From sequence record NC_004928.1: a stretch of 64,000 nt of DNA. One strand, 5' to 3'. A program made the translations under genes and the position numbers. Shown here in pieces: positions 5,650 to 45,672 of the stretch. Origin of the DNA: Escherichia phage RB69. Within the stretch, counting starts at the first letter, position 1; every line of letters begins with the position of its first letter. The notes beneath the pieces were generated by a model. That model did not search any database. It was given only the letters and a program-made list of their open reading frames with translations, and had not been told where the DNA came from.

Positions 5650-5673
5650 TCTTAATTGATTAAATCTTATTTT

Positions 5674-5699
5674 GGGAGACTTCGGTCTCCCATTTTTGG
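5674..5699 (+). terminator. rho-independent terminator after gene 23, C(UUCG)G hairpin plus T-run
   Basis: gggagac-ttcg-gtctccc followed by ttttt. Confidence 0.75.
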
Positions 5700-5730
5700 T
5701 TTTATTTCTGCGCAATTTCGATGTAAGTTT

Positions 5731-5971
5731 TCAAAATATTTTGCCAATTAGGCATACCTTCTGAACATATGCCGGAGAACCGTCTTTATTTTTGAATGAT
5801 GCAAGTTTATCAGTGGCCCAATAACCTTTAGTTCGAGCTTCAGAATCAACTTTCATCCATACTTTGTTGAAGGCATTACCATTAACTTTTGCACCATATT
5901 TTTGTACTTTCGGTTACAGATCCAGCTTCCAGAACTTTTACAGTATCTCGTAAGAAACGTGCTTTAGTCAT
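5731..5971 (-). pseudogene. small ORF interrupted by a 1-nt frameshift at an A5 run (about 79 codons if corrected)
   Basis: Hand translation of minus strand: MTKARFLRDTVKVLEAGSVTESTK then stop; adjacent frame continues ...YGAKVNGNAFNKVWMKVDSEARTKGYWATDKLASFKNKDGSPAYVQKVCLIGKIF*. Confidence 0.45.
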
Positions 5972-6037
5972 TTTGTTTACTCCTCTGCAGCTGATAAGTC
6001 GATAGTATCACATACCAAATACGTTGTAAACAATCTT

Positions 6038-21749: not shown

Positions 21750-23836
21750 TATCCTTGGACAAATTTAAACGGAACTGATTCTAAATCCATTAAAGATGCT
21801 AACAATTTCAAACCTTTAGGTGCGCTAGTTTTTTCTACAAATGAAGAGAACGATACCGGCTCATCTGATTCGATTTCACCTGTCATAGCAACCACCTCAC
21901 CTGTTTCCATGAGAACATCACCATCATAAATGACAGCTTCATCTAACTGGTCTGAGGACATGACTTCAGCTTGAATAAATTTAAGGTTGGATTCTAAACC
22001 TGCACCAGTGTCAGATGACGCATCTGTAATTTTATTTATCTGCAAGAGAATGCCTCTAGGCAAAATAATTTCTTGCTCATTAGGGTGATTACTCAACTGT
22101 CCTGGATAAATCACGTTAACTTTATGAGCACCATCAATAGCCCATCCAACGTTAACACGGATTTGTTCTGGTGCATGCATAGCTGTTCTTACTTGACTAG
22201 GAGAAATAGTAACACCTTCGTCATTATTGTCAATGTTAAGCTCTTTGCGAACGTTCTTCAGGAGCAAGTCCAAGGGCAACGTTCTCTTTAAACCCACCGA
22301 AAATAATAGGAGCTTGTGAAGTGGAAACATAGTTTCTGAAGTAGAATACCTTATTTTTAACCATTGCTTCGTAAATAGGCATTCTGATAGACTGAGCTCT
22401 ATATAACGTTTGTCCTTCAGGTAACGGTCTCCATTTAAAAACGCCGAATCAAGACCATCAATAGCGCGTTTAACTTCATCTTCATCTGCAACATCGTAAA
22501 AATCTGGTTTATAACGACCTAACAACATATTATTGATATCGGTATACGCAGAAGAGGCATATTCACGAATAGCTCGTTTTTCAGCAACAGAGTATTGTTT
22601 AGGGTCCCGATTCATTGTTATATTAAAGGTGCCTCTAGCCGATTCTCGTGCATAAGTATACATCACATTAGACAAGAACGCTGATTTACGTTGTTTCCAA
22701 GTTTTTTCAGATACTTCAGCTAAAACGTCGTCGGCCAGTTGGAAATTATCACGTCTAAAATCTTCAAACCATTCGTCTTTAATAGAGTCTGCAATCTCAT
22801 TTGCAGCTTCAACAAAAGCAGCTAATGCTTTAACAGATGTTGTTTTTTCAGTTTTAATTTTCTTAGCAAACTTTTCTAAAGTTGGCTTAATAACACCACC
22901 ATAAGAAACTTCATCAGCAAATTTAAAGGATTCATCAATACGATTATAAATCTTATTTTCGATATCAGCAACTAAAGTGCCTTTTGCTGTGGACGATGCT
23001 TGGGCTAGTACTATTTCATATGCTTCAGGAAGTAATTCGGCTGTAGCCGGGCCACTAACTTCTTTAGCAGAATTTTCGTATTTCTGGAATAACTCACCTT
23101 CTTGGCGGTCCGCTTCTAAAGATTGACTTGCTGCAATAGCACGACGAGAAATTTTAGTACGAGCAATAACAGGCTTATCTTTACGTTTTTCTTCTACAGC
23201 AGCAATAGAACCAGCGATAGCCGTTTCTTTGGTGACCTTTTCGCCAGTCTTTTTACTCACATAAACTTCGCCAACATCAGAATCTACTTTCGTGTACAAC
23301 TCTGTGTTAATGTTAGGGATGCCTTTAATATCTTCAATGTTGGCATTTTTACGAACCATCATCACATAGGTGTGTTTACCTGTGAATTGATACATTGCCG
23401 ACAATACTTTAAAACGACCACCGGTTTTAGTAGAAACTAAACGAGCAAGAAGAGTTTGAAGCTGCTGTCCACGTCCTTTCAATTTCTTGGTAGGGAATCG
23501 GAACAGAACTGCATCCATACGAAGAGCTTTAACCTGTTCATATACTGTATTGAAAATGGTGTTGATTGCATCAATAGGAGCAGGACCAAGGCCATTTTTC
23601 AATTCAGCGAGATTACCCTTTTCAGATAGACTCATAATAACAACATGAGCGTATTTGTCGCCAAGTTTAACTTGTTTTACAGCATCACCTTCGGAAAGGT
23701 AAGAGAATAAGCGAACTACGATGTTTGTATCGATATCACCAATTTTCCAGACTTGTGGAACTTTAGCTTTAGGGTTCAAATTGACGACAGGAAGACTGCC
23801 TTCAGATTCAAACACTTCATTTAATTGTTCAGACAT
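21749..23836 (-). CDS. alt: Alt-like ADP-ribosyltransferase (packaged); ORF open but an internal segment appears frame-shifted
   Basis: 695 aa; T4 Alt position; ART-type helix motif YTDINNMLLGR and EQEIILPRG in ORF frame, but YRA and STS motif region reads in another frame (see findings). Confidence 0.8.
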   Translation of the reverse strand: MSEQLNEVFESEGSLPVVNLNPKAKVPQVWKIGDIDTNIVVRLFSYLSEGDAVKQVKLGDKYAHVVIMSLSEKGNLAELKNGLGPAPIDAINTIFNTVYEQVKALRMDAVLFRFPTKKLKGRGQQLQTLLARLVSTKTGGRFKVLSAMYQFTGKHTYVMMVRKNANIEDIKGIPNINTELYTKVDSDVGEVYVSKKTGEKVTKETAIAGSIAAVEEKRKDKPVIARTKISRRAIAASQSLEADRQEGELFQKYENSAKEVSGPATAELLPEAYEIVLAQASSTAKGTLVADIENKIYNRIDESFKFADEVSYGGVIKPTLEKFAKKIKTEKTTSVKALAAFVEAANEIADSIKDEWFEDFRRDNFQLADDVLAEVSEKTWKQRKSAFLSNVMYTYARESARGTFNITMNRDPKQYSVAEKRAIREYASSAYTDINNMLLGRYKPDFYDVADEDEVKRAIDGLDSAFLNGDRYLKDKRYIELSLSECLFTKQWLKIRYSTSETMFPLHKLLLFSVGLKRTLPLDLLLKNVRKELNIDNNDEGVTISPSQVRTAMHAPEQIRVNVGWAIDGAHKVNVIYPGQLSNHPNEQEIILPRGILLQINKITDASSDTGAGLESNLKFIQAEVMSSDQLDEAVIYDGDVLMETGEVVAMTGEIESDEPVSFSSFVEKTSAPKGLKLLASLMDLESVPFKFVQG

Positions 23837-23891
23837 AGTGTTTTCCTTTTAGTAATAATTTATATTTATGCCAAAAAGAGCCCGAAGGCTC

Positions 23892-24080
23892 TTAATCCAC
23901 AATCTGGAGCAAAGTACGATAAACTTCAAAATTAGGGCCTTTTTCGTACTTATCAAAATTGTCCATAAAAATATGATAGGAATCGTTATTAGGAAAATCT
24001 AATACAATTTGGGAACAAGAGGTGGAAACATCACCACCATCTTTATTAGCGACAACTACTGTTTCTAAATAAGCTTTCAT
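23892..24080 (-). CDS. hypothetical small protein
   Basis: 62 aa ORF between DNA ligase and alt, followed by hairpin. Confidence 0.55.
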   Translation of the reverse strand: MKAYLETVVVANKDGGDVSTSCSQIVLDFPNNDSYHIFMDNFDKYEKGPNFEVYRTLLQIVD

Positions 24081-25573
24081 TATACACCCGTCTGGTCCCA
24101 GGACCCAAATACGTCTTCAAACGAATCCGCTTCTGTTTTATCAAAACGGAACCCTTTAATAATTGGAAGGAAAATACCTACAGTACCTTCACGGCCTTTA
24201 GAATGAACCCAACCATTACATTCACAATCAGCGATACGTCCAATCAATTTACCTTCACGAGCTTCGGACATTAATCGTTCACGGTCCAAATCATGACGCT
24301 CGTCTAAAGGAATAAGAACCTTTACACCGTCAACTGTTTTATGAGTTGTATCTTTAAAACCTGAACCACAATCGGTTGTAATACGACGACAACGTGATAC
24401 GAGTTCGACACCACCCAATTTGTTAGGGTCTTTAGAGTGTTCATAGTATCCTACAACTTCTAAAGCTATATCAATAACTTCTTTAAATTTAATTAGGTTC
24501 TTAGAGCGTTTGTTTTCCCAATATGAATCACGGTTTTTAAGGATAATACCTTCAAGACCTTGGTCAACATATTTTTTATAAACCACTTTAGCTTCGTCAA
24601 GATTACGAACTAACTGATTTTCAATTGGCTCAATTCGTTTAAAGCCTTCAGCCATATTTTCAAGAGCAGCAAAACGAACATCGTATTTCTGACCTTTAAT
24701 TTTGCCATCAGAATAGACTTCATCTAAAGGAACATAGTCCCAGGCTTGAAGAACCATACCTTCAGCTTCTTTAGGAGAAATAGTCCCTTGAAGAGATTTA
24801 TTTGCTAAACCGTTTGAAGTGCTACGGTCTGCAACTTGTACTTCTTCGGATTCTTCATTATCACCAAATAAGAACGACAGGTCATTTCCTGAGCTCACAG
24901 CCTTTTTAATATCAAATGAATGATAAACTAATTCGCCGTCGATTAAAACCCCATTAGGGTGTCTTTCACGAGCTTCTTTAGTCATTTCCATTAGTTCATC
25001 TGCTAATAGGGTAAGACCATGGTATTCATTACCAGCACGAGAAAAGAATTGAACACCATCATCGCGAACTTCAGCGAAACAACGAGCACCATCTGCTTTT
25101 AATTGAGCAAATGCAGGCCATTTAATATTTTTAGTAATCAATTTCTCATCATATGCAGATGCTAACATCTGTGGTTGCAATTGAATAAGTCCTGGCCACA
25201 CCTTATTCGCGATAGACACTGAAGCACCTACTTCAAGGTCGCGCATCATTACACGACGAAGGACTTCTACATCATCAGGTTTACCGTCAGCGATATAACC
25301 CATGAGCTCTTTAATTGCAGCATTACCAGTGAGTTTACGAGTGGCTAATGTGAACTCAATAAAATCCAACATGTCATCTAATTCAAGAAGACCATATGCC
25401 TGAGACCTTTCACCTGGCCCAGGCCATTTCTTAATATAATACTGAATGCCACGTGCATATGTTAAACGATACACGCGTTCAAGTAATTTGTTGTCCTTAT
25501 TTTTCTTAAGGATTTCCTGTTTTGTTTTAGTAGAACCGATCGCAGCTATTTGGTTTAAAATATCTAAAATCAT
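24080..25573 (-). CDS. 30: ATP-dependent DNA ligase gp30
   Basis: 497 aa; adenylation motif KADGAR; T4 ligase similarity. Confidence 0.95.
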   Translation of the reverse strand: MILDILNQIAAIGSTKTKQEILKKNKDNKLLERVYRLTYARGIQYYIKKWPGPGERSQAYGLLELDDMLDFIEFTLATRKLTGNAAIKELMGYIADGKPDDVEVLRRVMMRDLEVGASVSIANKVWPGLIQLQPQMLASAYDEKLITKNIKWPAFAQLKADGARCFAEVRDDGVQFFSRAGNEYHGLTLLADELMEMTKEARERHPNGVLIDGELVYHSFDIKKAVSSGNDLSFLFGDNEESEEVQVADRSTSNGLANKSLQGTISPKEAEGMVLQAWDYVPLDEVYSDGKIKGQKYDVRFAALENMAEGFKRIEPIENQLVRNLDEAKVVYKKYVDQGLEGIILKNRDSYWENKRSKNLIKFKEVIDIALEVVGYYEHSKDPNKLGGVELVSRCRRITTDCGSGFKDTTHKTVDGVKVLIPLDERHDLDRERLMSEAREGKLIGRIADCECNGWVHSKGREGTVGIFLPIIKGFRFDKTEADSFEDVFGSWDQTGV

Positions 25574-25839
25574 TTGATATCCTCGATTTTGGTTACGGTT
25601 CTATTATAAGCCACTTCATCTAGAAGCGATTTCAGCGTTTTCTGATAAGTGGTAATCCGTTTACCGAGTCCTTCAACATAATATTCTGAAATGTAGATGA
25701 ACCCTTGTTCAACACACTCTTTAAATATTTCTGCGTCTTTTACTGAACGAAACAATGGCCGGTCTCGAAAGAACATGTTAACGTGACCGTAGTCACGCGT
25801 TGTGTTTTTGCCATCTGTAATATCATGAACTACAAACAT
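25570..25839 (-). CDS. hypothetical protein (30.1-like)
   Basis: 89 aa ORF overlapping ligase start. Confidence 0.6.
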   Translation of the reverse strand: MFVVHDITDGKNTTRDYGHVNMFFRDRPLFRSVKDAEIFKECVEQGFIYISEYYVEGLGKRITTYQKTLKSLLDEVAYNRTVTKIEDIK

Positions 25840-25848
25840 AATTAACCC

Positions 25849-26664
25849 TTAACAATTTATAGACCAAGTCCATTTAGACGAATCTAAAGGAAAGTTTTGA
25901 ATCGTCCACCACGGCTGCATATCGGTTGGTCCTGGAGTTCGCCAGGTGTACGGATTTGACGGAGCGCCAATTTGATTAGGCCATGCGCCTGGACTTGTTG
26001 CACCAGATTCTTTAAGCAAATCCGCCAATCGTTTTAAAAGGTCTTCACGATCTGAATCTGAATTATGCTCGGGCGGAACCAAACGAGATTCAATATCATC
26101 CCACGTGTGTACACGTTGTGCAGTGCGAGGAATATCATCACGTTCACCACGAGCCAACCAATAAATCGGTACATTAAGAATTTCTGCCGCATGGTCACAG
26201 TGATGAGCTAAATCGTCAACGTAACAAATCACGTTATATTTTGTTTTAGCTAGTTCGAATAATTGTTCCTTTGAAGAATCATGACCACACATCATTACTT
26301 CAGAGAAAGCGCCTGGGAACAAAGCATTCAAATTAAATTGTCTATTCAATCGAGCATCAATTGAATCACCTAGCGCCGTCACGGCTACAAAATTATAGTC
26401 TTCTTTTAGTTTATTGATAACTCGAAGAGCATCCGAATAAGGCGCTAAGTAACGAATAAAATCAGAGCGATTATATTTTTCTATTAATTGTTTACCAAGG
26501 TTATCGTCGGTATTGAACAGTTTACCAGGAGAAATAAATTTTTCGTCCTGAATCATTTTTAAAATATGTTCTAATGGAAGATTATATTTTTGGGCAAAAT
26601 AAGGAAGACCAGATTGCCAGCTTAAACATACACCATCAATATCAGTCAAAATAGTAGGCTTCAT
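25849..26664 (-). CDS. HAD-superfamily hydrolase-like protein with Trp/Pro-rich C-terminal tail
   Basis: 271 aa; N-terminal DIDGV motif typical of HAD phosphatases. Confidence 0.6.
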   Translation of the reverse strand: MKPTILTDIDGVCLSWQSGLPYFAQKYNLPLEHILKMIQDEKFISPGKLFNTDDNLGKQLIEKYNRSDFIRYLAPYSDALRVINKLKEDYNFVAVTALGDSIDARLNRQFNLNALFPGAFSEVMMCGHDSSKEQLFELAKTKYNVICYVDDLAHHCDHAAEILNVPIYWLARGERDDIPRTAQRVHTWDDIESRLVPPEHNSDSDREDLLKRLADLLKESGATSPGAWPNQIGAPSNPYTWRTPGPTDMQPWWTIQNFPLDSSKWTWSINC

Positions 26665-26706
26665 AAAGAGTCTCTTAATAGGTTTAACACATCAATAAAT
26701 TCAGCT

Positions 26707-27129
26707 TCAAGTTAGTATTGTATCATCTTTTGTTAGACCACTAGCCATGCTGTGCTTCAAAATTTTTCCTTTAGAGGCTTGTAAGGCATCACGAAACCCC
26801 TTGTTTTGGATCGCGGCTTCAAAATATGCATTTGTGTATAATTCTTTCCACGCTTCGGAGTATCTTGAAAATGGAACTCCTAACCAGAAGAGAGTCCCAC
26901 GGTCCTGAGCTCTTGCATAAGACCTTCCTGCTTGCTGTGCAGCCAATCCAGACAACCCAAATATACTATGTTGTTGTTCAACATTTTTCACCTTACATCC
27001 TTGGAGAAATCCTTCAAGACCTCCGAATTGAATACCATCCATAACAAAAGGCCATTGAGCAAAGTTACTTAATGCACATGACGGCCACTTGAAATTACTT
27101 CTAATCTCTAACTCAGGCATCTTTAACAC
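26707..27129 (-). CDS. NADAR / YbiA-like (DUF1768) domain protein
   Basis: 140 aa; SNFAQWPF...DG...EGFLQGCK resembles the YbiA/NADAR N-terminal signature (recalled). Confidence 0.55.
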   Translation of the reverse strand: MLKMPELEIRSNFKWPSCALSNFAQWPFVMDGIQFGGLEGFLQGCKVKNVEQQHSIFGLSGLAAQQAGRSYARAQDRGTLFWLGVPFSRYSEAWKELYTNAYFEAAIQNKGFRDALQASKGKILKHSMASGLTKDDTILT

Positions 27130-27328
27130 TTATAATTTCAACATCAGCCCAATGACCATAACCAGGTATACGGTCTTCGATAGATAAATTTCCGTCATTT
27201 TTAGGCATTTTAATTGACGTAACGTATGGTTCTAAACGATTTTCTGCGTGTGGAGAAACATCTGTCACACGATAAGTAACTTCAATCGTTTCCATACCAA
27301 ACAATTTCTGGATTAATTTTTTAAGCAT
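27113..27328 (-). CDS. hypothetical protein
   Basis: 71 aa ORF in operon-like array. Confidence 0.5.
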   Translation of the reverse strand: MLKKLIQKLFGMETIEVTYRVTDVSPHAENRLEPYVTSIKMPKNDGNLSIEDRIPGYGHWADVEIISVKDA

Positions 27329-27332
27329 TTTA

Positions 27333-27677
27333 TTAGAACCTCATCTGAAAGCCATGTGATTTAACATTACCGCCGCCAATATCAGAAATGTTAATTTCAC
27401 TTGCAATCGAAGGATCGATGTCAATTTCACGATTAAGTTTAGTGATAGCCAAAGTATCATGCCCATTTACTGTACGAAACTCCAAAGGACATACTACGTT
27501 GACATAGTGTTTAATTGACTCGCTAGTAGGTTGCAAATGGACCGGAAGGTTTTTAGGTGCTTTAGAGAAAACAACTTCACAAAAGTTTTTGCGGGTATCA
27601 AAATAAGTGGTCATAAACATAATATTTTCCTCAATTGGGAAGCCGAAGCTCCCAGTTAAATTAGATATCGAATTCAT
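27333..27677 (-). CDS. hypothetical protein
   Basis: 114 aa ORF. Confidence 0.5.
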   Translation of the reverse strand: MNSISNLTGSFGFPIEENIMFMTTYFDTRKNFCEVVFSKAPKNLPVHLQPTSESIKHYVNVVCPLEFRTVNGHDTLAITKLNREIDIDPSIASEINISDIGGGNVKSHGFQMRF

Positions 27678-28026
27678 TAAGAACTACATCAAAGATTGCT
27701 TCGAGATGTTCAGGTTTAGCTCGGTTACTCAGGATATGACGAATCCAAGTTTTAACCAAAAGTTTACGATTAACACCGTTCCAGCAAGGATGAGTACCTA
27801 AATCACGCTGACGGAAATCATCATCTAATGCAATTTTGAAGTTGGAACCTTCCATCGTGATTGAAACCGTGATGCCATTTTCAAATCGCATATAAACGTA
27901 ATTAGGAGTCATGCACTGTTCGATTTCACAAACTGTACCGTTTTTGTGTTTCCATAAGCAAATAACTTCAGAAGAACCAGCGATACCGTTAGAAACATAT
28001 TTACGTTCGAAGTTGATGTAGTTCAT
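27661..28026 (-). CDS. hypothetical protein
   Basis: 121 aa ORF preceded by early promoter-like element. Confidence 0.55.
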   Translation of the reverse strand: MNYINFERKYVSNGIAGSSEVICLWKHKNGTVCEIEQCMTPNYVYMRFENGITVSITMEGSNFKIALDDDFRQRDLGTHPCWNGVNRKLLVKTWIRHILSNRAKPEHLEAIFDVVLNEFDI

Positions 28027-28067
28027 TTTATTCTCCAGATGTTTAAGTTGTTTGTTGGTACAGGTCT

Positions 28068-28096
28068 ATAATAACATATCCTGTACCAAAGTAAAC
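28068..28096 (-). promoter_or_regulatory. early promoter-like element (GTTTAC, 17 nt, TATTAT) within dyad symmetry
   Basis: Minus-strand hexamers; 8-bp inverted repeat ggtacagg/cctgtacc brackets the -10. Confidence 0.45.
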
Positions 28097-28101
28097 ATTT
28101 T

Positions 28102-28473
28102 TTATTTGATTTTTGTCCACTTAGCTGAATCAATAACACCTTTTGCTTTAATCTTCTCGATTAATGACTCTGCGCGATTTCTGGCATTTTCGTACCATAC
28201 AACGTCTTCAGAGTAACCAGTTTCTTCATCTTCGTAAGTTTTAGAACGAATACAGCCATAAACTGTAGAATTCAGACGGTAAATTTCACCAGTGAAAAAG
28301 TTTTCGATTTCGATATGATAACAAAAATCGTCTGAAGGGCCATCAGGAGTTGTACAATAAACCACATCACCTTGAACTGAACGAACCATCCACTGTAACT
28401 CGTTAACAACTTGAGATTTATATCCATCATGGTCACGGCATTTAATTGTAGCATTTAAATTGATAGTGTTCAT
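28102..28473 (-). CDS. hypothetical protein
   Basis: 123 aa ORF preceded by early promoter-like element. Confidence 0.55.
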   Translation of the reverse strand: MNTINLNATIKCRDHDGYKSQVVNELQWMVRSVQGDVVYCTTPDGPSDDFCYHIEIENFFTGEIYRLNSTVYGCIRSKTYEDEETGYSEDVVWYENARNRAESLIEKIKAKGVIDSAKWTKIK

Positions 28474-28514
28474 TTTATTCTCCGGTTGTTTTATTGATTA
28501 GGTGGTACAAGTCT

Positions 28515-28543
28515 ATAGAAACACATCCTACAGGAGAGTAAAC
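28515..28543 (-). promoter_or_regulatory. early promoter-like element (GTTTAC -35, weak -10)
   Basis: Similar in sequence to the 28068-28096 element. Confidence 0.35.
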
Positions 28544-28602
28544 ATCTTTTTAAACTTTTTCTGCCCTAAACGCACAAAAGGGAGACCGAAGTCTCCCTAA
28601 AA

Positions 28603-28782
28603 TTATGCAACAACCTTTCCAAAACGAGAAGCATCATCTCGAAGAACTGCACGTGCTCTGCGCATGATCTTCTCAACGGTTTGATTAATACGAGAGTTCG
28701 ACCCACGCTTGTATCCAGCGCGTTTAGAGGTACCATCAACTTTCTTTTCAACTGCTTTCTTTGCTTTAGCTTGTTTTGCCAT
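28603..28782 (-). CDS. small basic protein (59 aa)
   Basis: Hand translation MAKQAKAKKAVEKKVDGTSKRAGYKRG...; followed by C(UUCG)G hairpin; below track cutoff. Confidence 0.45.
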   Translation of the reverse strand: MAKQAKAKKAVEKKVDGTSKRAGYKRGSNSRINQTVEKIMRRARAVLRDDASRFGKVVA

Positions 28783-29045
28783 TATAAATTCTCTTTAAAT
28801 GAAAATGCAGGACTTATTGGCGTTGCCTGCGCAAGCCCTCAACGGGAACATAGGTTTTGGATATTTAACGACAGGATAACCATAAACCTCGTCATCATAC
28901 CAACCACGACTTAGACAGATAACCTTTTTCTGACGCGTGATAGTACAAAATACATTCAAGAGGTACACCGTAAAACTGCCGGGGTCTTAAAACTATAATG
29001 ATTCGCAAATCATTAATCAGACAGTTCGACGGCTCCTCGATTTAC

Positions 29046-29294
29046 TTACTTCAGGGTAATAACAAAATGACGTACTGCTTTACGAGCCGCAGAAGCCAGA
29101 GGCTTAGCAAATTTCAGTTCATCTTTAGCTTCCAGTTCAGCAGCCAGAGTAGCCTGAGCAGGATTCAGATGTTTGAAATAACGCAGGATTTCCAGTGCTT
29201 CGGCTTCAACATCAATAGATGCGCCGTAATTGTCATGGCCGTTATTCCATGCATGGCGTTGCAGTTCAAGAGCGTGTTGTAATTGTTTAATCAT
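29046..29294 (-). CDS. rIII: rIII lysis inhibition accessory protein
   Basis: 82 aa, MIKQLQHALELQR... as recalled for T4 rIII; position upstream of 31. Confidence 0.85.
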   Translation of the reverse strand: MIKQLQHALELQRHAWNNGHDNYGASIDVEAEALEILRYFKHLNPAQATLAAELEAKDELKFAKPLASAARKAVRHFVITLK

Positions 29295-29418
29295 TTTAAA
29301 TTCTCAATTCGAGATAATATTTAGTAGCCACGTTCTTCTGAATTTCACCTTCTTTCGACAAGTCTCTCAGTTGTAGGCTACCGCTTAGAAGAGTGTTCTC
29401 TTCATATAGTTATTTATA

Positions 29419-29751
29419 TCACTTATAAAGACACGGAATAGCTTTATAGTGGCATGTTACGAATTTCTGTTTAATTTCTTTAGGTTGTTTAAGTCCCAAA
29501 GCCACAAATGGATGTGGAACATTTCGAATTTGTCCAACCGGTAGTGGAGTCAAATCACCGACTTCAACAAAACCTTCAGGAACATCAGGACCTACAGAAT
29601 GAACTACACATAGTTCAGGAACTTCACCTTGAACACGTTTACCAATCACAAGTCCTGATTCAGTAACTTCTTCATCACCTGCTTGAGCGGGTTCAGAAAC
29701 CAGAATGACATATTCACCAACAGCACGAATTGGGAGTTGTACTTCAGACAT
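29419..29751 (-). CDS. 31: co-chaperonin gp31 (GroES analogue)
   Basis: 110 aa, near-identical to recalled T4 gp31. Confidence 0.93.
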
Positions 29752-29808
29752 CTTATTTCCTTGTTGTTTGACGATAGATTAATAATACCATACTATTCGT
29801 AAAGCATA

Positions 29809-30117
29809 TTACATAAGAAGCAAACGTTCGACCGGAGTACCATCAACCGAAATTACTTTATCAAGGCGGAAAGAACGCCACTGACCTAACTTGGTATCGA
29901 ATGCTCGAACTGATTCACGAGGTTCAGAACGAACTTCTGTTGCCGGATTGTTATTTTCATATTTGACTTCAAGTTCATCGCGCGAGGCAAACATCGTACG
30001 AATATCACCGTTAGCCTTTTCAAATACAACACAATGAACGCCTACAGACAGAATAGTTTTAATACGTTCACGAAGAACCATAGTTTCTTGTTCAGTTAAA
30101 ATCATATTATTCACCAC
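29809..30117 (-). CDS. hypothetical protein (31.1-like)
   Basis: 102 aa ORF. Confidence 0.55.
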   Translation of the reverse strand: MVNNMILTEQETMVLRERIKTILSVGVHCVVFEKANGDIRTMFASRDELEVKYENNNPATEVRSEPRESVRAFDTKLGQWRSFRLDKVISVDGTPVERLLLM

Positions 30118-30181
30118 AAAAGTTTCGGATTTGTTCCCAATTCAGAGAACGAAGATTATTACCGAGAAGTACTGAATTACT

Positions 30182-30691
30182 TCAATACCAGCTTGGTTTT
30201 AGAATGTCTGCCCAATTTTCAGGAGATCGGTTGTATAATTCTGCGTATACAACCTTTTTAATACCTGACTGCGTAATAGCTTTAGTGCAATCAGGACACG
30301 GAGAAAGCGTAGTATATAACGTAGCGCCTTCAATAGAATTACCTTTACGAGCTGCAAACAAAATTGCATTCAATTCCGCATGGATTTCGTTATTAGCAGA
30401 CCATGCACTATGAGCGGCCCGATGTTCTTTAGCCAAAACAAAATTATCTGCCCGTCCAAATGCTGTAGTGCCTTCTTTATGTCCAGCAACGATGGCCGGG
30501 CTTGATTTATTCTTCAACCAACCATTTTCGGATGCATGTTCGCAACAGTTAACGCCACCTGCGGGTGAACCATTATATCCAGTAGAGATAATGCGTCCAT
30601 CTTTTTCAATGACCGCACCAACTTTCCATGAACAACATTTTGATTCTTGAGAAATCAAATAAGCAATTTGAAGATATGTGCTAGCTTTCAT
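30182..30691 (-). CDS. cd: dCMP deaminase, C-terminally truncated by local frame disruption
   Basis: 169 aa ORF with HAE and PCPDC zinc motifs; conserved C-terminus (LNWEQIRNFCGE) lies downstream after an in-frame TGA (see findings). Confidence 0.85.
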   Translation of the reverse strand: MKASTYLQIAYLISQESKCCSWKVGAVIEKDGRIISTGYNGSPAGGVNCCEHASENGWLKNKSSPAIVAGHKEGTTAFGRADNFVLAKEHRAAHSAWSANNEIHAELNAILFAARKGNSIEGATLYTTLSPCPDCTKAITQSGIKKVVYAELYNRSPENWADILKPSWY

Positions 30692-30942
30692 TATAGTGTT
30701 CCGTATACGCGAGTTGCTTCAACTAAACCGTCACTGCCTAATTTAAGGCTAGTAATCTGGTCACCATCTTTAGGATTAACGATTATGAGAAAAGAACGTG
30801 GAGATTCTTGAATAACTCGTAATGTTGCATCTTGGAAACGTTCAGACACCTTATTGATGAGTGCTTGAGCAAATTCTTGTACTTTAATCTGAAATTCGTG
30901 TACTGTAATTGGGGTTTCACTTAGCCTTTCGATTTCCCTCAT
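30691..30942 (-). CDS. hypothetical protein
   Basis: 83 aa ORF abutting cd. Confidence 0.5.
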   Translation of the reverse strand: MREIERLSETPITVHEFQIKVQEFAQALINKVSERFQDATLRVIQESPRSFLIIVNPKDGDQITSLKLGSDGLVEATRVYGTL

Positions 30943-31669: not shown

Positions 31670-32755
<1,086 letters not shown>

Positions 32756-36139: not shown

Positions 36140-37312
36140 TTAGAAATATTTTTTGTATGAATTGATTACATTTTGGTCTACATCATTATCAATTTGTGCG
36201 ACAAGATAAGAACTGATTTCAACTTCCTGAGGAGCTGCTTGAACTAAATCAGAGTTCAGATATTCACGAATCCAAGGATACGGATGCTTGGTCGGAGCAT
36301 CAGTAATTGGACATGGCAAACCGCACTGTTTCATACGAGACACAGTCAAGTAATCAACAAAAGCACACATACTCTGTGTATTGATACCTGGACATGTACC
36401 GTCTTTAAAGAGGTGTGCAGCCCATTCCTTGTACTTGACTATTAACTTCCATAAAAATGTCAACTGCTTCTTGTTCACATTCTTTAGCAATTTGAACCCA
36501 CTCATCGCCATCAGTACCAGATTGAAGTTGACGGATAATGTACTGAGTACCCTGAGATGGAGTTGTTCGTCACGAGCAATGAACTTCATAATCTTTGCAT
36601 TACCTTCCATAATTTCCATATTTTTATGGAAGTTGAAAGTACATGCAAATGATACGTAAAAACGAATAGCTTCTAAGGCGTTGATAACATGCAAACAGAG
36701 ATAAAGAGACTTCATTAAATCGCGCTTGGCGTTAAACATTATTTCTTCGTACATCTCAATATCATTCTGCTGGCATGAGCCTATTGAACACTCATAAACT
36801 TCCTTAGCATTTTCCCAATTACGAGTCTTGACTAGAACATCGTCATAATATTTACCTATTGATTCAGCTCGTTTCATGATTGCTTCGTCTAATACAATCT
36901 CATCAAATACTTTGGATGGATCGGTATAAAGATTTCGCATAATATGAGTATATGAACGAGAGTGAATAGTTTCACTGAATGTCCATGTTGCAACCCACGT
37001 ATCTAATGAAGGGTCGGAAATCAGTGCCATAAGTACCGCAGATGGGGCCCTGCCTTGGATAGAATCCAATAATGATTGATACTTAAGATTGTTTGTACAG
37101 ATGTCCTGTTGGAACTGAGGAAGCTTATTGAACTGTGCAGAGTCCAACATCAAGTTTACCTCTTCGGGGCGCCAGAAAAATGACAGGATTTCTATAAGTT
37201 CTTCAAAAACTTTATGACGCTGAATATCATACCGTGCAAGACCAAGACCAGAACCAAAGAACATCGGTTCGTTCAAAACATCGACTTGTTGTGTATTAAA
37301 AACTGTACTCAT
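36140..37312 (-). CDS. nrdB: ribonucleotide reductase small subunit NrdB; intronless, with internal out-of-frame segment
   Basis: 390 aa ORF; N- and C-terminal parts match class Ia NrdB; about 50 codons in the middle are read out of the conserved frame (see findings). Confidence 0.9.
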   Translation of the reverse strand: MSTVFNTQQVDVLNEPMFFGSGLGLARYDIQRHKVFEELIEILSFFWRPEEVNLMLDSAQFNKLPQFQQDICTNNLKYQSLLDSIQGRAPSAVLMALISDPSLDTWVATWTFSETIHSRSYTHIMRNLYTDPSKVFDEIVLDEAIMKRAESIGKYYDDVLVKTRNWENAKEVYECSIGSCQQNDIEMYEEIMFNAKRDLMKSLYLCLHVINALEAIRFYVSFACTFNFHKNMEIMEGNAKIMKFIARDEQLHLRVLSTLSVNFNLVLMAMSGFKLLKNVNKKQLTFLWKLIVKYKEWAAHLFKDGTCPGINTQSMCAFVDYLTVSRMKQCGLPCPITDAPTKHPYPWIREYLNSDLVQAAPQEVEISSYLVAQIDNDVDQNVINSYKKYF

Positions 37313-37367
37313 TATATTTTCTCACTTAGTTATTAACTCATCCATGAGTAAATTATAATCAAAAGTC

Positions 37368-39623
37368 TTAAAGCTTACAAGCAGAGCAATCTTCAGCTTT
37401 AGGTGTTTCTAATTCATAGTCATCTGTACCTGACCCATCACGAGTGTTATGATAGTAGAGATTTTTTCCGCCAAAGTACCAGAAGTAAAGCAGATCGTCA
37501 AGCATTACCGACATTGGCACTTTACCTTTCTCAAATACAGCAGGGTCATAATAAGTATTAGCAGAAGCAGATTGGCACACCCATTTCAACATGATAGCAA
37601 CTTGGGTCAAATAAGGTTTATTACCTTTCTTAGCAAGTTTCCACGCGTAGTCGTAAAGACTCATGTTATGTTCGATATTAGGAACAACCTGTCGGAAGTT
37701 GCCTTCTTTAGATTCTTTAATACTTACAGGTCCACGAGGTGGTTCTATACCATTTGTGCTATTTGAGACTTGACTGCTTGATTCACATGGCATGAGAGCA
37801 CTAAGTGTACTGTTACGAATTCCATGTTCTTTTGAGTTCAGCTCGAAGTTCTTCCAGTCACAGACGTAGTTCGGGGCTGCGATTTGGTCAATCTTTTTAT
37901 TGTACCAGTCGATAGGTAATTCGCCTCTAGACCATTTAGTGTCTGAATAATACTCACAAGGTCCTTTTTCTTTGGCGAGTTTGATTGAAGCTTTGATAAG
38001 GCCATATTGCAATCTCTCGAACAATTCATGAGTCAAATAGTTAGCGTCTTCATATGAAGCAAAGTTAGAAGCTAACCATGCAGCATAGTTCGTCACACCG
38101 ACACCGAGATTTCGACGCTTTTTAGCTTTTAAAGCTTCTGGAACCGGATAATCTTGATAGTCTAACAGGTTATCAAGTGCACGTACTTGTACTTCAGCAA
38201 GTTCATTAATTTTATCTTGGTCTTGCCAATCAAATTTATCTAATACAAAAGCAGATAACGTGCATAAACCAATTTCAGCATCAGGACCATTCACATCATT
38301 AGTTGGAATAGCGATTTCACAACATAAGTTACTCTGACGAATTGGAGCTTTTTCACGAATAAACGGAGTGTAGTTATTCGTGTTATCAACAAACTGTGGA
38401 TAAATTCGAGCAGTACCAGAACGTTCAGTCATGAACAATTCAAAGAGTTCTAGTGCTTTGATTCTTTTCTTTCTGATTGTTGGGTCTTTTTCAGCTTTCT
38501 CATAAAGCTCACGGAATTTATCTTGATCTTCAAAGAATGAGTAATATAGTTCGCCTGACATTTCGTGAGGGCTAAATAAAGTAATATAATCATTTTTACC
38601 AAGGCGTTCCATCATGAGGTCATTAATCTGAATTCCGTAGTCCATATGTCGAATACGGTTTTCATCCACGCCTTTGTTATTTTTCAGAACTAATAGGTTC
38701 TCTACTTCTAAGTGCCACATTGGATAATACGCTGTAGCAGCACCACCACGAATACCACCTTGAGAACAAGATTTTACTGCAGTTTGGAAATGTTTCCAGA
38801 ATGGAATAACACCCGTATGTCGAACTTCACCCATACCGATCTTAGAACCTTCTGCACGAAGCATACCAACGTTGATACCGATACCAGCTCGTTTAGAAAT
38901 ATATTCAATAATTGATGCTGAAGTTTTGTTAATAGATTTTAACGAATCACCGGCTTCAATAACTACACAACTAGAGAACTGGCGAGTTGGAGTACGAGCA
39001 CCTGCCATAATTGGGGTTGGCAATGAAACTTGATGAGTAGAAACGGCATCATAAAAACGAATAATATGTTTCAAACGGTCATGAGTTTCGTCTTGGTGTA
39101 AGGCCATGCCAATAGCCATGATAGCAAACTGGGGAGTTTCATAAATCTTACCAGTTGTTTTATCTTTAACCAGGTATTTTTCTTTAAGCTGCATAGCACC
39201 AGCATAAGTCAGATCAAAATCTCGCTCATGTTTAATCCGAGAATCAAGATAAATGATTTCTTCTGCAGAATATCTAGACAACAACTCAGGATCATATTTG
39301 CCTTCATTAACACAATAAGAAATATGGTCGATAAAAGCAGGCGGTTCAAACTGCCCATATACATCTTTACGAAGTGCAAACATTAGCCCTTTGGCGGCGA
39401 CATACTGATAATCAGGTTCTTCGACAGAAATCGAGTTAGCTGCAACTTTAATACAAATCTTCTGGATATCTTTGGTGCTCATCCCGTCGACAAGATGGGT
39501 CTTAATTTCTTCGTACAATTCATATGGGTCGATTTGTGTTCCTTCACATTGCCAAGTTAAGACTTGAATAATTTTCTGTGCATCAAAATTTTGGGATACA
39601 CCACTGCTCTTAGTTACTTGCAT
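37368..39623 (-). CDS. nrdA: ribonucleotide reductase large subunit NrdA
   Basis: 751 aa; active-site NLCCE and C-terminal CSACKL cysteines. Confidence 0.95.
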   Translation of the reverse strand: MQVTKSSGVSQNFDAQKIIQVLTWQCEGTQIDPYELYEEIKTHLVDGMSTKDIQKICIKVAANSISVEEPDYQYVAAKGLMFALRKDVYGQFEPPAFIDHISYCVNEGKYDPELLSRYSAEEIIYLDSRIKHERDFDLTYAGAMQLKEKYLVKDKTTGKIYETPQFAIMAIGMALHQDETHDRLKHIIRFYDAVSTHQVSLPTPIMAGARTPTRQFSSCVVIEAGDSLKSINKTSASIIEYISKRAGIGINVGMLRAEGSKIGMGEVRHTGVIPFWKHFQTAVKSCSQGGIRGGAATAYYPMWHLEVENLLVLKNNKGVDENRIRHMDYGIQINDLMMERLGKNDYITLFSPHEMSGELYYSFFEDQDKFRELYEKAEKDPTIRKKRIKALELFELFMTERSGTARIYPQFVDNTNNYTPFIREKAPIRQSNLCCEIAIPTNDVNGPDAEIGLCTLSAFVLDKFDWQDQDKINELAEVQVRALDNLLDYQDYPVPEALKAKKRRNLGVGVTNYAAWLASNFASYEDANYLTHELFERLQYGLIKASIKLAKEKGPCEYYSDTKWSRGELPIDWYNKKIDQIAAPNYVCDWKNFELNSKEHGIRNSTLSALMPCESSSQVSNSTNGIEPPRGPVSIKESKEGNFRQVVPNIEHNMSLYDYAWKLAKKGNKPYLTQVAIMLKWVCQSASANTYYDPAVFEKGKVPMSVMLDDLLYFWYFGGKNLYYHNTRDGSGTDDYELETPKAEDCSACKL

Positions 39624-44166: not shown

Positions 44167-44501
44167 AATAAGAAATCTAACGTATTAGTTTTTTCACCAC
44201 GAGCAACTGATGGGCGAAGCATGTTTTCGTCAATTGCTTCGCTTGTAATTTTTTCAACAATTCCTGTAGGAATAAATTTAGCAAATTGTGTTTCTGGAAT
44301 AGAATTTTCTTCCAAGAAAGCAGTTGTTGCTTCTAAATAAGACATACCAAATTGTTCAACCATGGATTCGATAATGAATCCGTTTTCTTGACGGTCAAGC
44401 AATTTAGCGATATCATCTTTATCATGTTTTACTGCTAATTCTTGTTCAGATAAACCGGTCTCATCAACCGGTTTAATATCACTTAGTGAAAACTGTGTCA
44501 T
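44163..44501 (-). CDS. 33: late transcription co-activator gp33
   Basis: 112 aa as in T4 gp33. Confidence 0.9.
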   Translation of the reverse strand: MTQFSLSDIKPVDETGLSEQELAVKHDKDDIAKLLDRQENGFIIESMVEQFGMSYLEATTAFLEENSIPETQFAKFIPTGIVEKITSEAIDENMLRPSVARGEKTNTLDFLL

Positions 44502-44748
44502 AAAGCTCGACTACCTCTTCGTTTTCAGCTTCAAATTGGTCACGAGCATCTTTATGATAAAGAGCTAACAAACGATTAAACATTTTTCCATCAACGCCAA
44601 GCTCTTCTTTAGCACGAGTACGAATGTCTTTAATCAGTTCATTATAACCAGAAATTTTAAGTTTGTTATCGGAAGCTTCCTTGACTAGTTTAGCCAGTTC
44701 TTCACCATGCACATCTTGATTAAATTCAACTGCTTCTTTCTTAGCCAT
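44479..44748 (-). CDS. dsbA: dsDNA-binding protein DsbA
   Basis: Track ORF to 44766; Met at 44748 (MAKKEAVEF) matches recalled T4 DsbA start and follows AGGT RBS. Confidence 0.85.
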   Translation of the reverse strand: MAKKEAVEFNQDVHGEELAKLVKEASDNKLKISGYNELIKDIRTRAKEELGVDGKMFNRLLALYHKDARDQFEAENEEVVELYDTVFTK

Positions 44749-44799
44749 GTTTACCTCAGAATTCATTAATTACACTTGTTAATTTAGAAAGACCGGATT

Positions 44800-45672
44800 T
44801 TACAAGTATGAATAAATCTTGCCTTTAGGTTGTGGTTGATATGAGTTATAATACTCTATAATGGTTGAAGCAATATTATCAGGGATATAATCAAAATCAA
44901 TGAGAACCAAATTTTCTTGGTACCGTTTATATTCTTCTGCACTTAATAATACTTCAGCTTGAGAACGATCATTGGCAAGTGCTTCAATGATCGTTGTTTT
45001 CATGCTTGGAGTTCGTTCGCCTTCGACTCGAGTAAACCAGAAATCACCACGAACTCGAACAGACGCAACACCATCTTTACGGTCGCCTTTAAGAATTTTA
45101 GTCATGCAATCAATTTCGGCAGAACCATTCTTAATTTTAACCCATTTTTTCTGCGGTGGCGACCACTGTTTAACGTTAGGGTATTTGTGTAATTGTGTAA
45201 AGTCACCATCTGATGCAACAATACACACCTTATGACCAGCTAATGACAAATATTTAGTTAATACGCCGATATGGTCATCCGCTTCGTATTTGTCAATATC
45301 CATTACAACGTATGGCATATATTTCTTAATCTCATCAACGACTTGATGAAGTGCAGTAAAATATCCTTCCCAATCCCACTTTGAAGCTTCACGATCAGTT
45401 TTACGATTTTTCTTGTAGTAGTAAGCAAAGTCGCGTCGCCAATACCCAGAAGTAGCGTTATCCATGCACAATACAAATTTTGTATAACCTTGCTTACGGA
45501 ACATCACTACGTTTTTACGAATTGAATTCAAGACTACATGACGAACCATCGGAACGGTAATTTTATCACCATCTTCAAAGTTGTTTAATGCAGCTGCCAA
45601 TGCAATGTTACTAAAGTCTGCAAGCGCAATACCTTCTTTGTAATCTTCATCCAACATCATTTCTAAATCCAT
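44800..45672 (-). CDS. rnh: RNase H (5'-3' exonuclease), 3' end disrupted by apparent 1-nt deletion
   Basis: 290 aa ORF; conserved C-terminus LVKSGLSKLTSVINEF* continues in the +2 frame to 44756. Confidence 0.88.
   Translation of the reverse strand: MDLEMMLDEDYKEGIALADFSNIALAAALNNFEDGDKITVPMVRHVVLNSIRKNVVMFRKQGYTKFVLCMDNATSGYWRRDFAYYYKKNRKTDREASKWDWEGYFTALHQVVDEIKKYMPYVVMDIDKYEADDHIGVLTKYLSLAGHKVCIVASDGDFTQLHKYPNVKQWSPPQKKWVKIKNGSAEIDCMTKILKGDRKDGVASVRVRGDFWFTRVEGERTPSMKTTIIEALANDRSQAEVLLSAEEYKRYQENLVLIDFDYIPDNIASTIIEYYNSYQPQPKGKIYSYL

What the first reader, a model, noticed from the sequence alone, without database searches (positions are those of the whole stretch)
44756..44812. rnh 3' end: 1-nt deletion in a T-run removes the conserved C-terminal 16 residues from the ORF
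The ORF ends ...KGKIYSYL* at 44800. The +2 frame continues LVKSGLSKLTSVINEF*, matching the recalled T4 RNase H C-terminus (...YFVKAGLSKLTNSINEF), and ends 8 nt before the dsbA start with its RBS in between. This is consistent with loss of one T from tacTTTgta.
Basis: partly seen in the sequence, partly recalled or inferred. Interest (0 to 1): 0.5.

Follow-up and report, generated by a model that had tools for sequence, protein, structure and literature searches.

The report
Missing base in RB69 reference rnh
The shortened RNase H gene is real in this sequence, but it is almost certainly a one-base error in the 2003 phage RB69 reference genome, because independent assemblies of the same phage and all relatives encode the normal 305-residue protein.

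Summary
The rnh ORF (minus strand, 44800..45672) ends at ...KGKIYSYL*, and the -1 frame continues LVKSGLSKLTSVINEF* up to a TGA that overlaps the dsbA ribosome-binding site. Alignment shows TAC-TTG in the window where relatives have TACTTTG, so one T is missing (window 44804-44805).

The 290-aa product is exactly AAP76149.1/NP_861940.1 of phage RB69, so the window is the RB69 reference genome. That truncated allele was found nowhere else.

- All 120 listed homologue clusters are 299-393 aa, and all but one anomalous sequence keep the tail motif.
- The 305-aa protein, identical to the window's at residues 1-289, lies on 9 contigs assembled from public sequencing runs. Four of these contigs, from four runs, are 100% identical to the window over 1,084-1,100 nt around rnh except that they read TTT.
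- Over 34.4 kb, the window differs from two such assemblies at 34 sites, about half of them small indels. No relative supports the window's version at any of them.
- A single-base error in this same GenBank record has already been proven experimentally (Thomas et al. 2018).

Verdict: a deposit-specific artefact, most likely a Sanger base-calling error. A private mutation of the sequenced stock is less likely. The true gene is an ordinary 305-aa T4-type RNase H. Interest is low, and the value is in database correction.

The parts
44800..45672 (-). rnh ORF as it stands in the window: 290 aa, ending ...KGKIYSYL, stop TAA at 44802-44800. It is identical to the annotated RB69 protein AAP76149.1/NP_861940.1.
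   Evidence: Gapless alignment to T4 RNase H 1-289 of 305 (PDB 1TFR), E=8e-151. Pfam PF02739 plus PF09293 positions 1-109 of 124.
44804..44805 (-). Site of the missing base: a TT run where all relatives and the independent RB69-identical assemblies have TTT (codon TTT = Phe290).
   Evidence: gap at about 44806; 44805; 13 of 13 covering relatives support the TTT version and none the window version.
44756..44806 (-). Out-of-frame continuation (-1 frame): LVKSGLSKLTSVINEF plus TGA. These are the true last 16 codons and stop of rnh, once one T is restored so that the first codon reads TTT (Phe).
   Evidence: The restored translation ends ...GKIYSYFVKSGLSKLTSVINEF. The restored protein equals P0135, found on 9 contigs.
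44754..44757 (-). GAGG Shine-Dalgarno of dsbA, overlapping the true rnh stop codon TGA (44758-44756).
   Evidence: Read directly. Invariant in alignment A1.
44479..44748 (-). dsbA (89 aa from ATG 44748), the downstream neighbour. It is intact and 100% identical to the LF82-1 protein.
   Evidence: q1-89, 100% identity. Annotated as 270 nt.

Best explanation
The window is the 2003 Sanger-era reference genome of phage RB69. In that deposit one T of a TTT run (Phe290 codon) at the 3' end of rnh is missing. The annotated RNase H therefore stops at residue 290, and the last 16 codons sit unread in the -1 frame. The phage itself most likely carries TTT and makes an ordinary 305-residue T4-type RNase H. 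This enzyme is a FEN-1-family 5' nuclease that removes Okazaki primers, and its C-terminal domain contacts gp32. Its TGA stop overlaps the dsbA ribosome-binding site, as in all relatives. Shown here: the deletion, its uniqueness to the deposit, the TTT reading in independent assemblies, and the general pattern of indel discrepancies in the deposit. Inferred: that the cause is a base-calling or editing error rather than a mutation in the particular stock that was sequenced.
For: (1) The 290-aa product is exactly AAP76149.1/NP_861940.1 of RB69, seen on 1 contig of 167,560 bp. Every other listed full-length member of its 90% cluster is 305 aa; the only other listed member is a 128-aa partial. (2) The 305-aa protein, identical to the window's at residues 1-289, is on 9 Logan contigs. 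Contigs from SRR16634598, SRR16629527, SRR29299746 and SRR29299747 have 0 mismatches to the window over 1,084-1,100 nt and a single gap, where they read TACTTTG. (3) The deleted-allele 22/23-mer is absent from viral contigs. Its four hits in metagenome and genome contigs are chance matches in unrelated AT-rich DNA, while the undeleted 24-mer is found. (4) Over 34.4 kb, the window differs from assemblies L023 and L024 at 34 sites, about half of them 1-3-nt indels and several clustered. At none does a relative share the window's version. Relatives share the assembly's version at 26; at the other 8 no relative had an exact flanking match to either version. (5) All 120 listed homologue clusters are 299-393 aa, and all but one anomalous sequence keep the tail YFVKxGLxKL....[ND][ED]F down to about 40% identity. 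The truncation removes positions 110-124 of Pfam PF09293. (6) The 16 orphaned codons carry no further damage. (7) Precedent: Thomas et al. 2018 (PMC6024577) re-sequenced a cloned RB69 fragment and showed that an extra C-29116 in NC_004928.1 falsely split one gene. They attributed it to Sanger sequencing.
Against: I could not read the original traces or raw reads, and I could not identify what the SRA runs are. They could therefore be a different laboratory lineage of RB69. rnh is dispensable in polA+ hosts (review PMC3012046), so a real truncating mutation could persist in a stock. A TTT run is short for a classic homopolymer miscall. One other C-terminal frameshift in the window (the gene 30.3 homologue) is confirmed by an independent assembly, so not every oddity of the deposit is an error.
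Confidence: 0.85

Rival explanations
1. This is a genuine private mutation. The RB69 stock sequenced in 2003 had really lost one T, so it makes a 290-residue RNase H without the last helix-forming tail. That would probably weaken stimulation by gp32 while keeping nuclease activity. The change would be tolerated because host DNA polymerase I can substitute.
For: rnh-minus T4 is viable because Pol I 5'-3' exonuclease substitutes, and mutations in the RNase H C-terminal domain abrogate the gp32 interaction (review PMC3012046, citing Gangisetty et al. 2005 and Hobbs & Nossal 1996). The catalytic region 1-289 is intact. A different C-terminal frameshift in the same genome (gene 30.3) is real.
Against: The allele is seen only in the single deposit. 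Four otherwise identical assemblies read TTT. The deposit shows about 1 discrepancy per kb, biased to indels, and is the outlier at every one, including compensated frameshift pairs inside alt, nrdA and probably nrdB, which are hard to explain as mutations. One such discrepancy elsewhere in the record is a proven error. The orphaned tail shows no decay.
Confidence: 0.12
2. This is programmed recoding or a phase-variable (contingency) site. Ribosomes or polymerases would slip at the T-run, so that both a short and a full-length RNase H are made.
For: The downstream frame is perfectly preserved and ends at the normal stop. Phage contingency loci have been reported (bioRxiv 10.1101/2025.10.21.683753).
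Against: There is no X XXY YYZ slippery heptamer in ...AAG ATT TAT TCA TAC TTG TAA (read). tRNA-Tyr or tRNA-Leu cannot re-pair in the -1 frame (inference). The run is only 2-3 T, whereas the preprint's criterion is at least 6 bp. No relative and no independent assembly has the split arrangement, and all are simply in frame, so there is nothing conserved to program.
Confidence: 0.01
3. The reference is right and the short-read assemblies are wrong at this position, or they belong to a different phage.
For: The assemblies are automatic and I could not inspect the reads or run metadata.
Against: Four runs from two accession series agree. Thirteen of 13 relatives covering the site, from many laboratories, have TTT. 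The assemblies are 99.87-99.93% identical to the window, and at the 26 of 34 differences where relatives can be compared they agree with the relatives.
Confidence: 0.02

Closest known systems
Bacteriophage T4 RNase H (rnh product, 305 aa; PDB 1TFR, 2IHN), a FEN-1/Rad2-family 5' nuclease
   Same: Gapless alignment of residues 1-289, E=8e-151. Same two Pfam domains. Same gene order 32-59-33-dsbA-rnh-34. With one T restored, the same length (305 aa) and the same C-terminal motif YFVKxGLSKLTxxINEF.
   Different: As deposited, the ORF stops at residue 290 (F290L, then stop) and lacks the last 15 positions of the RNaseH_C model. About 75% identical to T4 in the rest.
The ORF053c/ORF052c split in the RB69 GenBank entry NC_004928.1 (Thomas et al. 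2018, Viruses 10:313, PMC6024577)
   Same: Same GenBank record and the same kind of lesion: a single-base indel that breaks a gene whose homologues are intact. That case was shown by re-sequencing to be an error of the deposit.
   Different: That case is an extra C that splits a gene in two, at genome position 29116, which is probably outside this window by my estimate. This one is a missing T that clips 16 C-terminal residues. This one rests on independent assemblies, not on targeted re-sequencing of the stock.
Engineered C-terminal deletion of T4 RNase H (Gangisetty, Jones, Bhagwat & Nossal 2005, J Biol Chem 280:12876)
   Same: If the truncation were real, it would be a natural counterpart: loss of C-terminal residues in the domain that contacts gp32, with the nuclease core intact (review PMC3012046).
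   Different: The primary paper is not held in the library. Its exact deletion boundaries are only my recollection (about residues 278-305, larger than the 16 lost here). No phenotype is known for a 290-residue form.

Membership tests
T4-type RNase H (FEN-1-family 5' nuclease; Pfam PF02739 + PF09293) | N-terminal 5'-3' exonuclease domain above Pfam's curated cut-off | tested here: met
   PF02739: 50.2 bits against a cut-off of 34.3, residues 52-175.
T4-type RNase H (FEN-1-family 5' nuclease; Pfam PF02739 + PF09293) | Complete T4 RNase H C-terminal domain (PF09293, 124 positions) | tested here: not met
   As deposited, positions 1-109 of 124 (175 bits). With the T restored (P0135), 1-124 of 124 (198.6 bits). 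The shortfall is the artefact itself, not a different family.
T4-type RNase H (FEN-1-family 5' nuclease; Pfam PF02739 + PF09293) | Metal-binding aspartates D19, D71, D132, D155, D157, D200 (listed in review PMC3012046) | tested here: met
   The gapless alignment to 1TFR shows identical residues in the motifs ...LxDFS, CxDNA, YEADDH, SDGDF and KGDxKD.
T4-type RNase H (FEN-1-family 5' nuclease; Pfam PF02739 + PF09293) | Conserved position between gene 34 and dsbA in T4-like genomes | tested here: met
T4-type RNase H (FEN-1-family 5' nuclease; Pfam PF02739 + PF09293) | 5' nuclease activity and stimulation by gp32 | not testable with these tools
   Biochemical property, known for T4 only.
Programmed -1 ribosomal frameshift site | Slippery heptamer X XXY YYZ in the zero frame at the shift point | tested here: not met
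   The zero-frame codons AAG ATT TAT TCA TAC TTG TAA contain no such heptamer (read).
Programmed -1 ribosomal frameshift site | Two-frame arrangement conserved in relatives | tested here: not met
   All relatives and all independent assemblies encode one continuous 305-aa ORF.
Phage contingency locus (hypermutable homopolymer) | Homopolymer tract of at least 6 bp | tested here: not met
   The tract is TT (TTT when intact). The criterion is from bioRxiv 10.1101/2025.10.21.683753.
Sequencing error in a reference deposit | Independent sequencing of the same organism disagrees with the deposit at the site and agrees elsewhere | tested here: met
   Four run assemblies: 0 mismatches and 1 gap over 1,084-1,100 nt.
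Sequencing error in a reference deposit | The deposit is the outlier against relatives at its discrepancies, and the discrepancies are indel-rich and clustered | tested here: met
   At 34 of 34 differences no relative supports the window's version, and about half are indels.
Sequencing error in a reference deposit | Original traces, or the archived stock, show the corrected base | not testable with these tools
   No access to traces, reads or the stock.

The most novel reading that the evidence does not exclude
The RB69 stock that was sequenced in 2003, which is the source of much RB69 replication biochemistry, really carried a naturally truncated RNase H lacking the conserved 16-residue tail. 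It would then be a spontaneous separation-of-function allele: nuclease kept, gp32 coupling weakened, and tolerated thanks to host Pol I.
Probability: 0.1. Interest if true: 0.25.

Novelty: not a real feature. Interest (0 to 1): 0.1.

Why it matters
Biologically it matters little, because the real gene is an ordinary T4-type RNase H. The practical value is curation. RefSeq NP_861940.1, GenBank AAP76149.1 and UniProt Q7Y4R2 give RB69 RNase H as 290 aa, when the phage almost certainly makes 305 aa. The same comparison shows that the RB69 reference, a widely used model genome for replication studies, differs from independent assemblies at about one position per kilobase in the 34 kb examined. That includes compensated frameshift pairs inside alt and nrdA, and probably nrdB. 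Anyone using RB69 protein sequences from this record for structure, phylogeny or benchmarking should check them against a modern assembly.

Tried and rejected
- The exact-protein look-up of the 290-aa product in the contig index found nothing. The cluster look-up did find it, as the RB69 GenBank protein.
- I searched for the deleted allele by exact DNA pattern. There were none in viral contigs. Three metagenome hits and one genome hit turned out to be chance matches in unrelated AT-rich DNA with no rnh homologue.
- The phage collection searched by BLAST does not hold RB69 itself. The best hits are 96.5-97.6% identical, so it could not identify the window directly.
- Gangisetty et al. 2005 is not held, so the boundaries of the engineered C-terminal deletion are from memory only.
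- A search for the SRA run accessions in papers found nothing, so the origin of the independent assemblies is unknown.
- Programmed frameshifting and a contingency locus were considered and rejected: no slippery heptamer, a tract of 2-3 T, and no conservation of the split.
- The promoter/terminator scan around the site showed nothing above the shuffled expectation.
- I did not run structure prediction. It would only have described the lost tail and could not bear on error versus mutation.

Full report
**What is in the sequence.** The finding lies at the 3' end of a minus-strand ORF, 44800..45672, of 290 codons. On the minus strand the sequence reads ...GGC AAG ATT TAT TCA TAC TTG TAA, giving ...GKIYSYL* with the stop at 44802-44800. 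The frame that begins one base earlier reads CTT GTA AAA TCC GGT CTT TCT AAA TTA ACA AGT GTA ATT AAT GAA TTC TGA. That is LVKSGLSKLTSVINEF*, with the TGA at 44758-44756. Seven bases later comes the ATG of the next gene at 44748. A GAGG Shine-Dalgarno (44757-44754) overlaps the TGA.

**Identity of the gene and its neighbourhood.** The product aligns without a gap to residues 1-289 of the 305-residue T4 RNase H (PDB 1TFR/2IHN, E=8e-151). It carries Pfam PF02739 and PF09293. The surrounding genes are gp32, gp59, gp33, dsbA, rnh and gp34, in T4 order. The closest annotated phages are Mosigvirus (RB69-like) genomes at 96-97.6% identity, and each annotates rnh as 918 nt, or 305 aa.

**The lesion.** A base-level alignment of the 3' end with five relatives shows one gap in this stretch. 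The window has TAC-TTG where the others have TACTTTG (TATTTTG in PhAPEC2), and everything downstream to dsbA is collinear. In all 40 listed hits, 1001 query bases align to 1002 subject bases.

**Is a short C-terminus ever natural?** A search of 5.8 billion protein clusters returned 120 listed homologue clusters of 299-393 aa, and none near 290. When aligned, all but one odd chimeric sequence keep the tail motif Y-F-V-K-x-G-L-x-K-L-(4)-[ND]-[ED]-F at the very C-terminus, down to about 40% identity. The truncation removes positions 110-124 of the curated RNaseH_C model. [quoted passage not shown] The tail is therefore under strong selection, although its loss would probably not be lethal.

**Where the window comes from.** An exact-sequence look-up shows that the 290-aa product is AAP76149.1/NP_861940.1, 'RNaseH ribonuclease [Escherichia phage RB69]', seen on a single 167,560-bp contig. 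Every other listed full-length member of the same 90% cluster is 305 aa; the remaining listed member is a 128-aa partial. The window is therefore the RB69 reference genome, and the truncation is how that record is annotated. The BLAST phage collection used here happens not to contain RB69 itself.

**Independent sequencing.** I used the window's gp32 protein as an exact-match probe and recovered ten contigs. All encode a 305-aa rnh. One of them, a Logan assembly of run SRR16634598 (L023), is 99.93% identical to the window over 12.9 kb. It differs by one substitution and seven small indel events, and the rnh T is one of these. The 305-aa protein of that contig is identical to the window's at residues 1-289 and occurs on 9 contigs. 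Contigs from four runs (SRR16634598, SRR16629527, SRR29299746, SRR29299747) have zero mismatches to the window across 1,084-1,100 nt around rnh, including the RB69-specific TCC codon, and a single gap where they read TACTTTG. Conversely, the deleted allele was not found anywhere else. There were no hits in viral contigs, and the four hits in metagenome and genome contigs are chance matches in unrelated AT-rich DNA.

**Context: the quality of the deposit.** I checked 100 annotated proteins of a relative (LF82-1) against the window. Only two conserved genes have their C-terminal tail displaced into another frame: rnh and a gene 30.3 homologue. Comparison with two RB69-identical assemblies over 34.4 kb gives 34 differences, about half of them 1-3-nt indels, often clustered:

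- Compensated frameshift pairs inside alt (22253/22424) and nrdA (37833/37855).
- Probably a compensated pair inside nrdB (36433/36553).
- Three single-base insertions within 34 nt of cd.

At all 34 sites no relative shares the window's version, and relatives share the assembly's version at 26 of them. This indel-rich, clustered, always-the-outlier pattern is what low-coverage Sanger errors look like, and it is not what divergence looks like. There is also a published precedent. Thomas et al. 2018 re-sequenced a cloned RB69 fragment and showed that an extra C at 29116 in NC_004928.1 had falsely split one gene into ORF053c and ORF052c. They noted that the genome was Sanger-sequenced before high-coverage methods existed.

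**An internal control.** The gene 30.3 frameshift behaves differently. The independent assembly L024 also has an extra T relative to other Mosigviruses and also gives a 137-aa product. So the method can confirm a real strain-specific truncation, and at rnh it does not.

**Rivals.**

- A genuine private mutation in the stock sequenced in 2003 cannot be excluded without that stock or its traces. rnh is dispensable in polA+ hosts. I give this about 0.12.
- Programmed frameshifting or a contingency locus is not supported. There is no slippery heptamer, the tract is only 2-3 T against a criterion of at least 6 bp, and no relative conserves a split arrangement.
- An error in the short-read assemblies is very unlikely, given four runs and 13 of 13 relatives in agreement.

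**Verdict.** What it reveals is an artefact of the RB69 reference record, not biology. The corrected gene spans 44756..45672 plus one base and encodes a standard 305-aa T4-type RNase H, whose stop overlaps the dsbA ribosome-binding site. Interest is low, and the useful outcome is a correction to NP_861940.1/Q7Y4R2 and a warning about the error density of this reference.

Noticed in passing
window 26707-27120 (minus strand): The gene 30.3 homologue (Pfam PF08010) is 137 aa, ending ...DDTILT*, against 152 aa in LF82-1. An extra T puts the last 15 codons in another frame. Unlike rnh, an independent RB69-like assembly (L024, SRR16629527) also has a +1 T and a 137-aa product, with the T placed 4 nt upstream (CTTAACTGA versus window CTAACTTGA). 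This truncation therefore looks genuine for the strain.
   Followed up: partly
L025 (SRR29299748), matching window 23150-30147: This contig is identical to RB69 except for 28519, 29044 and a patch of about 260 bp (window 26709-26970) holding all other differences. The patch carries the full-length 152-aa gene 30.3 allele, which suggests a small recombinant (mosaic) patch in an otherwise RB69 genome.
   Followed up: no
window 22253-22424 (alt gene, minus strand): The window has +G at 22253 and -A at 22424 relative to the independent assembly and to LF82-1, with two T/A substitutions in between. This is a compensated 170-nt frameshift that would rewrite about 57 residues of the Alt ADP-ribosyltransferase. 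It is probably a low-quality stretch of the reference.
   Followed up: partly
window 36433-36553 (nrdB), 37185-37188, 37833-37855 (nrdA): There are further compensated indel pairs in the ribonucleotide reductase genes. nrdB is only 81.7% identical to LF82-1 at protein level, while its neighbours are above 97%. At 36553, 37185/37188, 37833 and 37855 the independent assembly agrees with relatives, not with the window. Position 36433 was not covered by an independent contig.
   Followed up: partly
window 30163-30232 (cd), 30850-30938, 32149-32389 (pseT), 15266 (gp51), 42490: These are other clustered discrepancies between the window and the independent assemblies: three 1-nt insertions in dCMP deaminase, six substitutions within 240 nt of pseT, an in-frame extra GAT in gp51, and an extra T just downstream of the gene 32 stop. 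At none does a relative support the window's version.
   Followed up: partly
window 44746-44766 (minus strand): The mechanical ORF for dsbA starts at an upstream ATG (44766, MNSEVNMAKKE..., 95 aa). Some relatives' records annotate that 288-nt form and others the 270-nt/89-aa form starting at 44748. With rnh in its true frame, the longer form would overlap the last 11 nt of rnh. The GAGG 7 nt before 44748 favours the 89-aa start. This is an annotation inconsistency among Mosigvirus records.
   Followed up: no
window about 5650-5980, 37313-37375 and other gaps relative to LF82-1 (L008/L009): Two homing-endonuclease genes of LF82-1 (one just downstream of the major head protein gene, one between nrdA and nrdB), an aldolase-like gene and a few small ORFs have no counterpart in the window. 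Other relatives carry I-TevI-like inserts near gene 59 and td (L015, L020). This is the usual mobile-endonuclease presence/absence variation of T4-like phages.
   Followed up: no
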